Shown in pieces: positions 59,408 through 59,815 of a stretch of DNA of 64,000 nucleotides. Source of the DNA: a virus; the IMG/VR virus record IMGVR_UViG_3300041809_000571, positions 51,841 to 115,840 of that record; one strand, 5' to 3'. The notes beneath the pieces are model-generated. The model saw only the letters and a list, made by a program, of their open reading frames with translations. It was not told the DNA's origin and searched no databases. A program made the translations under genes and the position numbers. Position 1 is the first letter of the stretch, and each line of letters begins with the position of its first letter.

Positions 59408-59739
59408 AGCTAGCCCGGAAAATGTGGGTTCGAGTCCCACCGGATAATCGCATGGAGTAGCCTTCCCGTCAGGCAGAACGCCCCCAGCGACCCGTCATTC
59501 AATCGGTAGGATACCGGGGATTGATTCAGGGAGAAGGTTGCGGGTTCGAGTCCCGTCGCCCCGCCATGCGGGGCGTAGCTCAATGGTAGAGCGTCTCCCA
59601 TGATGCAGCCGGAAAAACGGGGTTCGATTCCCCGTAGGTCATGGTGCAGCGTAGCCTCATGGTAGCTGTGACCAAGATAACCATGGTACCCTTGGTCTTG
59701 ACCTTCGTTTATTTGGATAAGACACCGGCGTGAGTTTTT

Positions 59740-59815
59740 GGGTGAGTCGTCCAATTGGATAGGACTGCGGTCTCCAAAACCGCCAATAGGGGTTCGAGTC
59801 CCTTCTCGCCTGCCA
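59740..59815 (+). tRNA. tRNA-Trp(CCA)
   Basis: Anticodon arm GCGGT-CTCCAAA-ACCGC; CCA. Confidence 0.65.

What the first reader, a model, noticed from the sequence alone, without database searches (positions are those of the whole stretch)
59408..59740. Zone of tRNA fragments including a permuted-looking arrangement (3' half immediately before its own 5' half)
At 59527-59566 there is GGAGA (3' anticodon stem), a variable region, T-arm GCGGG-TTCGAGT-CCCGT and acceptor CGCCCCG plus CCA. Directly after, at 59569-59600, comes the complementary 5' acceptor CGGGGCG-TA, a D-arm GCTC-AATGGTAGA-GC and a 5' anticodon stem TCTCC that pairs with the upstream GGAGA. That is the layout of a circularly permuted tRNA gene. 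Additional orphan T-arms (59429-59445, 59610-59628) suggest repeated endonuclease-driven rearrangement.
Basis: seen in the sequence. Interest (0 to 1): 0.5.

Follow-up and report, generated by a model that had tools for sequence, protein, structure and literature searches.

The report
Anticodon-less tRNA mimics in phage tRNA operon
The "back-to-front tRNA" is real, but it is most likely not a scrambled tRNA gene: it looks like a small tRNA-shaped RNA without an anticodon (the design of bacterial Y-like RNAs), conserved as tightly as real tRNAs inside the tRNA operon of a giant soil phage that shows no gene for the usual protein partner, Ro60.

Summary
At 59529-59599 a tRNA 3' half (closing strand, variable loop, T-arm, acceptor strand, CCA) is followed 2 nt later by its own 5' half, with 7/7 acceptor and 6/6 "anticodon-stem" Watson-Crick pairs. 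Rejoined in normal order with any 7-nt loop, the halves give a perfect tRNA. There is no anticodon loop and no splicing motif, so a decoding permuted tRNA is very unlikely.

The layout (T-arm, closed acceptor hairpin, D-arm) is that of YrlA, the bacterial Y-like RNA. Rfam YrlA scores it 41.9 bits. Ro60-adjacent phage YrlAs score 38-55 bits and ordinary tandem-tRNA junctions 20-31.

A second permuted module (59414-59518) lies directly upstream. Between two phage lineages with about 88% identical genes, 59408-59613 differs at 1 of 206 positions. That equals the rate of conserved tRNAs (2/381) and is well below neighbouring spacers (14/233, p=0.001).

Similar orphan modules occur beside tRNA genes in Tunturi_5, two IMG/VR phage contigs and Microbacterium phage Floof. 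No Ro60 was found in Tunturi_5 (first 300 kb) or Floof.

YrlA membership is not established: there is no Ro60 gene in the window, no GNCGAA motif, and the score is below the Rfam threshold. No diverged orthologues were found, so covariation could not be tested. Decayed tandem tRNAs remain the main rival.

The parts
59414..59518 (+). A-unit, the upstream permuted tRNA-like module. Closing strand CCCGG 59414-18, variable loop AAAAT, T-arm 59424-59440, 54-nt acceptor-position insert 59441-59494, TC, D-arm ATTC-AATCGGTA-GGAT 59497-59512, A, closing strand CCGGG 59514-18.
   Evidence: Found by the architecture scan. The closing stem and T-arm appear in the MFE fold, but the overall fold is not better than shuffles (z=+1.0). 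It is identical in the relative except for one D-loop indel. A module of the same build, with the same closing stem and a shared AGRCAGAACGSC stretch, occurs in Tunturi_5 at 253899-254012.
59529..59599 (+). Closing stem GGGAGA/TCTCCC, variable loop AGGTT, T-arm 59540-59556, closed acceptor hairpin 59557-59575 (7-8 bp, with CCA in the loop), TA, D-arm 59578-59592.
   Evidence: Rfam YrlA match over 59517-59615: 41.9 bits, E=1.4e-7, full-length. The MFE fold is exactly this four-way junction: 47% of the ensemble, z=-3.3, 0 of 200 shuffles as good. The re-permuted halves give a perfect tRNA. It is 100% identical in the relatives.
59514..59528 (+). 5' flank of the B-unit. It can extend the closing stem (CCGG, UUG and UCA pairing with 59600-59612).
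   Evidence: Predicted in the MFE fold. The extension alone is not better than shuffled flanks (p=0.36). It has no GNCGAA motif.
59600..59613 (+). 3' flank of the B-unit (AUGAUGCAGCCGG), the partner strand of 59514-59528. It marks the end of the tightly conserved block.
   Evidence: All substitutions between the two lineages lie 3' of 59613.
59614..59739 (+). C region: a third orphan T-arm (59618-59634), a degenerate D-arm-like hairpin, and the hairpin GACCAAG...CTTGGTC. It is probably spacer or decayed tRNA.
   Evidence: 6 differences in 126 nt between relatives, which is the spacer rate. The changes are not compensatory, for example GGTCA to GGACA breaks a predicted helix. Fold z=-1.4.
58484..58561 (+). 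B2, a further permuted tRNA-like module in the same array. GCAGG, AGGTT, a degenerate T-arm, closed hairpin CTCGCC-GATGG-GGCGAG, TA, a D-arm with a 17-nt loop, A, CCTGC.
   Evidence: Rfam YrlA 28.6 bits, full-length. The MFE fold shows the same topology, z=-2.2. It is not present in the relative or in IMG/VR.

Best explanation
The zone 59408-59613 encodes two tandem small RNAs that mimic the body of a tRNA but have no anticodon. The order of parts is T-arm, acceptor-position hairpin, D-arm, closed by a stem that takes the place of the anticodon stem. This is the architecture of YrlA-type Y-like RNAs.

Proposed mechanism:
1. They lie on the tRNA strand between tRNA-Gln and tRNA-Trp with no promoter or terminator of their own, so they are probably made as part of the polycistronic tRNA transcript and released by the enzymes that cut out the flanking tRNAs (inferred).
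2. The B-unit folds into an L-shaped tRNA-like core. U8, A14, G18G19, the T-loop UUCGAGU and an A15:U48 Levitt pair are all present in the sequence (shown).
3. Because its acceptor-position helix is 7-8 bp with CCA in the loop, RNase P would probably cut the loop. That would give a two-piece, CCA-ended molecule, as shown experimentally for Mycobacterium smegmatis YrlA (inferred by analogy).
4. The mimic then occupies or recruits proteins that recognise tRNA shape. Candidates are a host Ro60/Rsr, or the phage's own RNA-repair proteins (PNKP, Rnl1-type ligase, RlaP, Thg1-like, MVP-like in this window). The partner is unknown (inferred).
For: - Family match: RF02553 YrlA full-length match, 41.9 bits, E=1.4e-7. 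This lies inside the range of phage YrlAs that sit next to a Ro60-type gene (L007 54.9; Kingsolomon 37.9; SM23 37.7). It is above every ordinary tandem-tRNA junction scored (20.3-30.7).
- Fold: the B-unit MFE is the predicted four-way junction, 47% of the ensemble, z=-3.3.
- Which frame pairs: permuted-frame pairs are perfect (7/7 and 6/6). My reading of the sequence shows the canonical-frame pairs of the same pieces are broken: acceptor 4/7 and 3/7, and the anticodon stem of the downstream unit 1/5.
- Conservation: 59408-59613 has 1 difference in 206 nt against a lineage whose genes are about 88% identical. That compares with 14/233 in spacers beside conserved tRNAs (Fisher p=0.001) and matches the conserved tRNAs (2/381). 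The directly flanking tRNA-Gln and tRNA-Trp are only 67% and 75% identical.
- Not coding: a 1-nt indel between relatives falls inside the only long ORF over the zone (minus strand, 59410-59916), which also overlaps two tRNA-Trp genes.
- Recurrence: further orphan modules of the same topology lie beside tRNA genes in the window (B2), in Tunturi_5 253899-254012, in IMG/VR loci L016 and L017, and in Microbacterium phage Floof 47734-47795.
- Precedent for loop cleavage: M. smegmatis YrlA, with a 7-bp acceptor-like stem, is cut by RNase P and receives CCA in vivo (PMC4201824).
Against: - No TROVE/Ro60 or DUF2828-type protein was found in the 64-kb window, in the loci held for the relatives, or in the 300 kb of Tunturi_5 that was read. 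This rests on Pfam scans of all five window ORFs of 400 aa or more plus about 30 shorter window ORFs, and on tblastn.
- The GNCGAAN0-1G motif proposed for Rsr binding is absent; there is no CGAA anywhere in the zone.
- The Rfam score is below the gathering threshold of 69.
- Extension of the closing stem beyond 6 bp is not better than chance (p=0.36).
- The A-unit has no significant thermodynamic fold (z=+1.0).
- Only two alleles of the zone exist in the collections searched. The conservation argument therefore rests on one pairwise comparison in a mosaic region, and no covariation test was possible.
- Tandem copies of one tRNA automatically give this complementarity, as the Tunturi_5 Gln|Gln junction shows. 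The origin from a tRNA dimer is therefore not in doubt; only the present function is.
- Expression was not tested.
Confidence: 0.55

Rival explanations
1. Dead remnants. The zone is a string of decayed or chimeric tRNA pseudogenes left by duplication, unequal recombination and deletion in a fast-shuffling tRNA array. The 'permuted unit' is simply the junction of two former tandem copies of a tRNA-Gly-like gene, whose outer halves were replaced. It has no function of its own.
For: Tandem paralogues give the same signal by construction: the Tunturi_5 Gln|Gln junction passes my architecture filter, and the YrlA model hits ordinary junctions at 20-31 bits. Chen et al. discarded such hits for this reason. 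The array is strongly mosaic between relatives, with HNH endonuclease genes inserted. Pieces of the zone resemble 3' halves of tRNA-Met and tRNA-Asp of other phages. In Tunturi_5, Gly follows Gln, and Asp and Met follow Trp. The 3' part of the zone (59614-59739) evolves at the spacer rate. The A-unit and the stem extension are not thermodynamically significant.
Against: 59408-59613 is conserved at the tRNA level, not the spacer level (p=0.001), while the flanking real tRNAs have been replaced. Decay has spared exactly the permuted-frame helices (13/13 Watson-Crick pairs, intact T- and D-arms and tertiary-contact bases) while destroying the canonical-frame ones. The loop between the acceptor strands is only 5 nt and lacks a discriminator base plus full CCA, which gives a compact hairpin. 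No parent tRNA is in the window. Orphan modules bounded precisely at the anticodon stem recur in at least four other phage lineages.
Confidence: 0.27
2. A classical YrlA-Ro60 particle. The B-unit is an ordinary member of the YrlA family, and its Ro60/Rsr partner is encoded elsewhere in the unsampled part of the phage genome, or by the acidobacterial host. It would tether Rsr to an exoribonuclease as in Deinococcus and Salmonella.
For: The score and topology match Ro60-adjacent phage YrlAs. Tandem Y RNA genes (YrlA/YrlB) processed from one precursor are known. The window covers only part of a genome that is probably much larger: the relative's contig is 140 kb and Tunturi_5 is 309 kb.
Against: The conserved 5' GNCGAAN0-1G motif is absent. 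No Ro60 gene lies within 4 kb, which was Chen et al.'s criterion, or anywhere in the 64 kb window. With this query, tblastn found no Ro60 hit in any Tunturiibacter phage record of the phage collection, which includes the nearest isolate Tunturi_5. Floof carries a similar module but no Ro60 in its complete genome.
Confidence: 0.15
3. A true circularly permuted tRNA gene. The transcript is circularised or its ends are joined (for example by the phage Rnl1-type ligase and PNKP) and then opened at the acceptor, to give a decoding tRNA.
For: The gene order 3' half then 5' half, with CCA at the junction, is that of permuted tRNA and permuted tmRNA genes. The re-permuted halves make a perfect tRNA body. 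The phage encodes an RNA ligase and a polynucleotide kinase-phosphatase.
Against: No 7-nt anticodon loop can be assembled with U33 from the flanks (CAUGAUG... and ...GAUUCAG). There is no bulge-helix-bulge motif. No splicing endonuclease was detected. No discriminator base precedes CCA. Permuted tRNA genes are, to my knowledge, not known in bacteria or phages.
Confidence: 0.03

Closest known systems
YrlA (Rfam RF02553), the tRNA-like Y RNA of bacteria and mycobacteriophages; especially Mycobacterium smegmatis YrlA (Chen et al. 2014, PMC4201824)
   Same: The order is T-arm, acceptor-position stem-loop, D-arm, closed by a stem of the 5' and 3' ends. The tRNA tertiary-contact bases and a compatible 15:48 Levitt pair are kept. 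It has a 7-bp acceptor-like stem, as in M. smegmatis YrlA, which RNase P cuts and which receives CCA. Y RNA genes occur in tandem. The bit score falls within the range of Ro60-adjacent phage examples.
   Different: It has no GNCGAAN0-1G motif and no Ro60 gene nearby. It is embedded in a tRNA operon rather than beside rsr. It has a 5-nt variable loop instead of a V stem-loop. Its score is below the Rfam gathering threshold.
Unannotated orphan modules next to tRNA genes: Microbacterium phage Floof (MH271298, 47734-47795), Tunturiibacter phage Tunturi_5 (PP885688, 253899-254012), IMG/VR loci L016 and L017
   Same: They have the same permuted topology, bounded at the anticodon stem, and lie inside or beside tRNA genes. 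No Ro60 was found in Floof (complete genome), in the 300 kb of Tunturi_5 read, or in the 12-14 kb held for L016 and L017. An RNA ligase gene (RtcB) is 2 kb away in Floof and about 9 kb away in Tunturi_5. The Tunturi_5 module shares the CCCGG/CCGGG closing stem and an AGRCAGAACGSC stretch with the A-unit.
   Different: These are independent sequences and not demonstrable orthologues, apart from a possible A-unit/Tunturi_5 relationship. None has been described or tested experimentally, as far as I could find.
Circularly permuted tRNA genes of the red alga Cyanidioschyzon merolae (recalled from my own knowledge; not checked here)
   Same: The 3' half is encoded upstream of the 5' half, joined across the acceptor end.
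   Different: Those genes retain a full anticodon loop, form a bulge-helix-bulge motif cut by the splicing endonuclease, and mature into decoding tRNAs through a circular intermediate. None of these features is present here.
Two-piece tmRNA from permuted ssrA genes (alpha-proteobacteria and some cyanobacteria; recalled from my own knowledge)
   Same: The gene order is permuted, with the acceptor 3' strand plus CCA upstream of the 5' strand and processing in the connecting loop.
   Different: Here there is no tag reading frame, no pseudoknots, and no G3:U70 alanine identity pair. ARAGORN, which can detect tmRNA genes, reports none.

Membership tests
YrlA / Y RNA-like (RF02553) | tRNA-like domain in the order T-arm, acceptor-position stem-loop, D-arm, with the tRNA tertiary-contact nucleotides | tested here: met
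   T-loop UUCGAGU, D-loop AAUGGUA (A14, G18G19), U8, and A15:U48.
YrlA / Y RNA-like (RF02553) | Score at or above Rfam's gathering threshold (69 bits) | tested here: not met
   41.9 bits. However, three phage YrlAs that sit next to a Ro60-type gene also fall below it: 54.9, 37.9 and 37.7 bits.
YrlA / Y RNA-like (RF02553) | GNCGAAN0-1G motif near the 5' end (the proposed Rsr contact) | tested here: not met
   No match, and no CGAA at all, in 59400-59745.
YrlA / Y RNA-like (RF02553) | Encoded within about 4 kb of a Ro60 (TROVE) gene on the same strand | tested here: not met
   No TROVE or DUF2828 hit among the window proteins scanned with Pfam (all five ORFs of 400 aa or more plus about 30 shorter ones). 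tblastn with two Ro-type proteins against the whole window gave nothing. The window reaches only 4.3 kb downstream of the zone.
YrlA / Y RNA-like (RF02553) | Not merely the junction of two annotated tandem tRNA genes | tested here: met
   ARAGORN and Rfam call no tRNA over 59408-59739. My reading of the sequence shows the canonical-frame helices are broken.
YrlA / Y RNA-like (RF02553) | Physical binding to Ro60/Rsr | not testable with these tools
   This needs immunoprecipitation or a gel-shift assay.
Circularly permuted tRNA gene | 3' half upstream of a 5' half from the same tRNA | tested here: met
Circularly permuted tRNA gene | Recoverable 7-nt anticodon loop, and a bulge-helix-bulge motif formed by leader and trailer | tested here: not met
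   The folds show a bulged A, a 2x2 internal loop and a 3-nt bulge. No U33-containing loop can be assembled from the flanks.
Circularly permuted tRNA gene | Circular or re-joined RNA intermediate | not testable with these tools
   This needs RNA-seq junction reads.
Permuted (two-piece) tmRNA | Tag reading frame, pseudoknots, and a G3:U70 acceptor pair | tested here: not met
   ARAGORN finds no tmRNA. Rfam tmRNA models match only the T-arm at 11-14 bits. The acceptor is C-G/G-C at every position.
tRNA pseudogene / decayed tandem pair | Evolves at the neutral (spacer) rate | tested here: not met
   For 59408-59613: 1/206 differences against 14/233 in spacers, p=0.001. The feature is met for 59614-59739 (6/126). 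This rests on a single pairwise comparison.

The most novel reading that the evidence does not exclude
Anticodon-less, circularly permuted tRNA mimics may form a recurrent, unannotated and Ro60-independent class of small RNAs in phage tRNA operons. Examples seen here are the window's A, B and B2 units, and modules in Tunturi_5, Floof and two IMG/VR phage contigs. They would be released by tRNA-processing enzymes, possibly split by RNase P into two-piece CCA-ended molecules. They would then work with phage RNA-repair machinery (RtcB, or Rnl1 plus PNKP, RlaP, or the MVP-like protein encoded 26 kb away), or act as decoys for host factors that target tRNA bodies.
Probability: 0.25. Interest if true: 0.75.

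Novelty: new variant of a known kind. Interest (0 to 1): 0.5.

Why it matters
What the tRNA-like domain of bacterial Y RNAs does is still unknown, as Chen et al. state. All described YrlAs were defined by their position next to Ro60. Here the same tRNA-mimic design sits inside a tRNA operon of a jumbo phage of Acidobacteriota. It is conserved like a tRNA, it lacks the Ro60 gene and the proposed Ro60-binding motif, and it occurs in a genome region rich in RNA-repair genes.

If these modules are functional, the tRNA-like domain has a role of its own, separable from Ro60. Two cultured phage-host pairs carry comparable modules and could be used to test this directly: Tunturi_5 with Tunturiibacter, and Floof with Microbacterium foliorum.

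There is also a practical point for annotation. tRNA finders miss these elements or mislabel them; the equivalent module in phage SM23 is annotated as a 67-nt 'tRNA-Asn'. The Rfam gathering threshold misses even the Ro60-adjacent phage examples.

Tried and rejected
- Distant orthologues for covariation. Five DNA-pattern scans were run: core T-arm/D-arm, CCGGAAAA-T-arm, 5'-flank plus D-arm in metagenomes, the A-unit/Tunturi motif, and B2. Two protein-synteny scans were also run. Together they returned only one near-identical relative lineage (L003/4/6/8, L022-28), unrelated tRNAs, or chance hits in coding sequence (L035, L036). No covariation test was possible.
- A Ro60 partner. Pfam scans covered all five window ORFs of 400 aa or more plus about 30 shorter ones. 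tblastn with a genuine Ro60 (L007) and a DUF2828-type Ro-like protein (L001) was run against the window, the relatives' loci and the phage collection. All were negative for this lineage. The 'RNA-binding protein' gp125 of Tunturi_5 has a DUF3850 domain, not TROVE. gp310, just downstream of the Tunturi_5 module, has no Pfam hit and no homologue in the window.
- A long Y-RNA-like stem. The 16-bp extended closing stem of the B-unit appears in the MFE fold, but its extension is not better than shuffled flanks (p=0.36), so I do not rely on it.
- A 'tRNA nested in the anticodon loop of an outer tRNA'. The outer 5' half would be 59489-59518 and the outer 3' half 59609-59640. The window's MFE fold shows it, but the outer acceptor GACC/GGUC is broken in the relative (GGAC), so I set it aside.
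- tmRNA, group I intron, or any other Rfam family. Nothing was found beyond the T-arm.
Only generic T-arm matches were found.
- Protein coding on the minus strand (ORF 59410-59916). Rejected because it overlaps two tRNA-Trp genes and a 1-nt indel between relatives falls inside it.

Full report
CONTEXT

The window is phage-like. It is 53.7% G+C and nearly all genes are on the + strand. It carries 37 tRNA genes in three + strand arrays. Array 28884-30397 holds only long-variable-arm tRNAs (Tyr, Leu, Ser). Array 56372-59892 holds His, Arg, Asn, Lys, Phe, Met, Pro, Gln and Trp.

The proteins include a polynucleotide kinase-phosphatase, a T4 Rnl1-type RNA ligase, an RlaP nucleotidyltransferase, a Thg1-like enzyme, an SNF2 helicase, radical-SAM enzymes, an HNH endonuclease and a Major-Vault-Protein-like protein.

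The closest isolate is the 309-kb jumbo phage Tunturi_5 of the acidobacterium Tunturiibacter. Its helicase is 53% identical, but only 9 of 45 window proteins have a homologue there. Close relatives, with about 88% nucleotide identity in genes, are four IMG/VR contigs and three metagenome contigs.

THE OBSERVATION

The arrangement is real. The parts are:
- GGGAGA 59529-34
- AGGTT (variable loop)
- T-arm 59540-56
- CGCCCCG 59557-63
- CCA, then TG
- CGGGGCG 59569-75
- TA
- D-arm 59578-92
- G
- TCTCCC 59594-99

Acceptor-type pairing is 7/7 and closing-stem pairing is 6/6, all Watson-Crick. ARAGORN and Rfam's tRNA model call nothing in 59408-59739.

The halves joined in canonical order with any 7-nt loop are called a 73-nt tRNA; with a UCC, GCC or CCC anticodon the call is tRNA-Gly. 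A strict architecture filter finds only two hits in the window, both in this zone, and none in 364 kb of reverse-strand control. None of the window's 21 closely spaced tRNA junctions has 7/7 acceptor complementarity.

WHAT IT RESEMBLES

An E-value scan of Rfam matched 59517-59615 over the full length of RF02553, YrlA (Y RNA-like), at 41.9 bits and E=1.4e-7. YrlA RNAs bind the bacterial Ro60 orthologue Rsr. They contain a tRNA-like domain whose parts come in exactly this 'permuted' order: T-arm, a closed stem-loop in the acceptor position, then D-arm (Chen et al. 2014, PMC4201824).

RNAfold gives this four-way junction as the MFE structure of 59510-59615. It accounts for 47% of the ensemble, with z=-3.3 and 0 of 200 shuffles as stable.

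Chen et al. warn that tandem tRNAs can mimic YrlA, so I calibrated the score (all values in bits):
- Ordinary junctions in this window and in Tunturi_5: 20.3-30.7.
- Phage YrlAs directly beside a Ro60-type gene: 54.9 (L007), 37.9 (Kingsolomon) and 37.7 (SM23). All are below the gathering threshold of 69.
- The B-unit, at 41.9, falls in the genuine range.

A SECOND MODULE AND THE REST OF THE ZONE

Directly upstream, 59414-59518 has the same topology. The parts are CCCGG, AAAAT, T-arm A, a 54-nt insert in the acceptor position, TC, D-arm ATTC-AATCGGTA-GGAT, A, CCGGG. Its overall fold is not thermodynamically significant.

Tunturi_5 has an orphan module of the same build in an intergenic region at the end of a tRNA array (253899-254012). 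It has the same CCCGG/CCGGG closing stem, a 62-nt insert, and a shared AGRCAGAACGSC stretch at a similar position. The similarity is suggestive but could be chance. A pattern built from it retrieved nothing new.

A third permuted module, B2, lies at 58484-58561 with different, compensating stems.

The 3' part of the zone (59614-59739) holds the third T-arm and degenerate hairpins.

FUNCTION OR DEBRIS?

The array is mosaic between the window and its relative. Some tRNAs are 99-100% identical while others are 40-79% identical or replaced, and HNH endonuclease genes are inserted.

Within that mosaic, the differences are:
- 59408-59613: one D-loop indel in 206 nt.
- The five conserved tRNAs: 2 in 381 nt.
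- The spacers beside those tRNAs: 14 in 233 nt.
- 59614-59739: 6 in 126 nt.

Part 1 therefore differs from spacers (Fisher p=0.001) but not from tRNAs. Part 2 behaves like spacer. The tRNA-Gln and tRNA-Trp that flank the zone are only 67% and 75% identical.

Selection, if that is what this shows, has preserved the permuted-frame helices. From the sequence, read as tandem tRNAs the same pieces have broken acceptor stems (4/7 and 3/7) and a broken anticodon stem (1/5).

The only long ORF over the zone is on the minus strand. It overlaps two tRNA genes and is hit by the 1-nt indel, so the zone is not coding. No parent tRNA is present in the window.

Against over-reading:
- This is a single pairwise comparison.
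- No diverged orthologues exist in the viral or metagenome collections searched, so covariation could not be tested.
- The extension of the B-unit closing stem beyond 6 bp is not significant.

RECURRENCE ELSEWHERE

Running the same filter on loci fetched for other reasons turned up orphan permuted modules inside two unrelated phage tRNA arrays:
- L016, between two tRNA-Pro genes, YrlA 31.9 bits.
- L017, where the flanks form an extra 9-bp stem, p=0.014.

A BLAST search of the B-unit against isolated phages gave colinear T-arm/hairpin/D-arm matches in actinophages:
- In Kingsolomon and SM23 the module abuts a Ro-type gene.
- In Microbacterium phage Floof it lies 12 nt after a tRNA gene and 2 kb from an RtcB ligase gene. 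The complete 48.5-kb genome has no annotated Ro60 (all 81 features read), and tblastn of its right half (25,000-48,500) with two Ro-type proteins found nothing.

Ro60-less, tRNA-adjacent modules of this design therefore exist in cultured phages and are unannotated. In SM23 the module is mislabelled as a 67-nt tRNA-Asn.

MEMBERSHIP AND MECHANISM

The zone meets the structural definition of the YrlA tRNA-like domain. It fails three other criteria: the GNCGAAN0-1G motif, proximity to Ro60, and the Rfam threshold. I therefore describe it as working like, but not shown to be, a YrlA.

It is not a permuted tRNA gene in the algal sense, because it has no anticodon loop and no bulge-helix-bulge motif. 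It is not a permuted tmRNA either.

The most likely mechanism:
1. Co-transcription with the tRNA operon. No promoter-like or terminator-like site was found in or next to the zone.
2. Release by tRNA-processing enzymes.
3. Folding into an anticodon-less L-shape.
4. Probable RNase P cleavage of the 5-nt loop that carries CCA. This is by analogy with M. smegmatis YrlA, whose 7-bp acceptor-like stem makes it an RNase P substrate that then receives CCA.
5. Binding of tRNA-shape-recognising proteins. The partner is unknown.

Bacterial MVP homologues and RtcB are reported to share RNA-repair operons with small RNAs (Burroughs and Aravind 2016, as cited in PMC13404743). The window's RNA-repair gene set makes such a link worth testing, but nothing here demonstrates it.

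VERDICT

The interpretation as a permuted tRNA gene is not supported. The best reading is a conserved pair of YrlA-type tRNA mimics in a phage tRNA operon with no Ro60 gene in the 64 kb available (confidence about 0.55). Decayed tandem tRNAs are the main rival (about 0.27).

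Noticed in passing
window 30761-33202 (-), with 34045-35016 (+) nearby and the tRNA array 28884-30397 directly adjacent: An 813-aa Major-Vault-Protein-like protein (MVP_shoulder 1.4e-21, Vault_3 1.5e-10) is encoded next to the Tyr/Leu/Ser tRNA array. A weak ADP-ribosyltransferase-like ORF (ART-PolyVal, 1.8e-4) lies 0.8 kb away. No PHROG family matches the MVP-like protein. Viral MVPs have been reported only in a 2023 preprint cited in PMC13404743.
   Followed up: partly
window 8524-9645, 10031-11302, 41430-42200, 49706-50644: There is a dense RNA-repair and tRNA-maintenance gene set: a polynucleotide kinase-phosphatase, a T4 Rnl1-type RNA ligase, a Thg1-like tRNA-His guanylyltransferase, and an RlaP nucleotidyltransferase. 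This suggests the host attacks tRNAs during infection.
   Followed up: partly
window 58273-58476 (+): This is a ~200-nt element with a 7-bp acceptor-type stem (GCCCGTG...CACGGGC), a canonical T-arm (58449-58465) and a 3' ACCA, enclosing several hairpins. Fold z=-2.7. It looks like a tRNA-like RNA with a very large insert, or a miniature tmRNA-like RNA. ARAGORN and Rfam do not recognise it, and it is absent from the relative.
   Followed up: partly
window 29824-29894 and 58939-59012 (+): Two otherwise good tRNA genes have 6-nt anticodon loops; ARAGORN reports 'tRNA-???' with 2-nt anticodons. The second scores 46.7 bits with Rfam's tRNA model. They may be non-decoding or frameshifting tRNAs, which is the same theme as the anticodon-less mimics.
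   Followed up: partly
window 59915-60055 (+): Downstream of the last tRNA-Trp, a structured ~125-nt element is closed by a 9-bp stem (AGAGGGUC...GACCCUCU) and followed by a U-rich tract. It contains a T-arm-like hairpin GTGGG-TTAGAAC-CCCAC. Fold z=-2.5. It may be the terminator of the tRNA operon or another small RNA.
   Followed up: partly
window 56372-59892 versus L004 4509-8322; window 60646-61200; L004 about 7100-7650: The tRNA array is a mosaic between close relatives. Blocks at 99-100% identity alternate with replaced or 40-79% identical tRNAs. There is a 4.8-kb insertion in the window (51097-55922: radical SAM, epimerase). HNH endonuclease genes sit inside the arrays at different places in each lineage.
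   Followed up: partly
window 28884-30397; Tunturi_5 231315-232480 (L033 31315-32480): Both phages keep their long-variable-arm tRNAs (Leu, Ser, Tyr) in a separate array from the other tRNAs, although they share few proteins. The Tunturi_5 array also holds one tRNA-Cys.
   Followed up: no
L039 2462-2528 (Microbacterium phage SM23, PQ655446 26711-26777); Mycobacterium phage Myrna 95193-95249: In public records, YrlA-type modules are annotated as short tRNAs: 'tRNA-Asn' (67 nt) in SM23, and 'tRNA-Asp' overlapping the match in Myrna. Others have no annotation at all, for example Floof, Kingsolomon and Phabba.
   Followed up: partly
L001 12070-13680: In an IMG/VR phage contig, a YrlA-type module lies directly upstream of a DUF2828 + DUF7788 protein rather than a canonical TROVE Ro60. 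Kingsolomon's 'Ro-like RNA binding protein' is of this same type, 32% identical to the L001 protein.
   Followed up: partly
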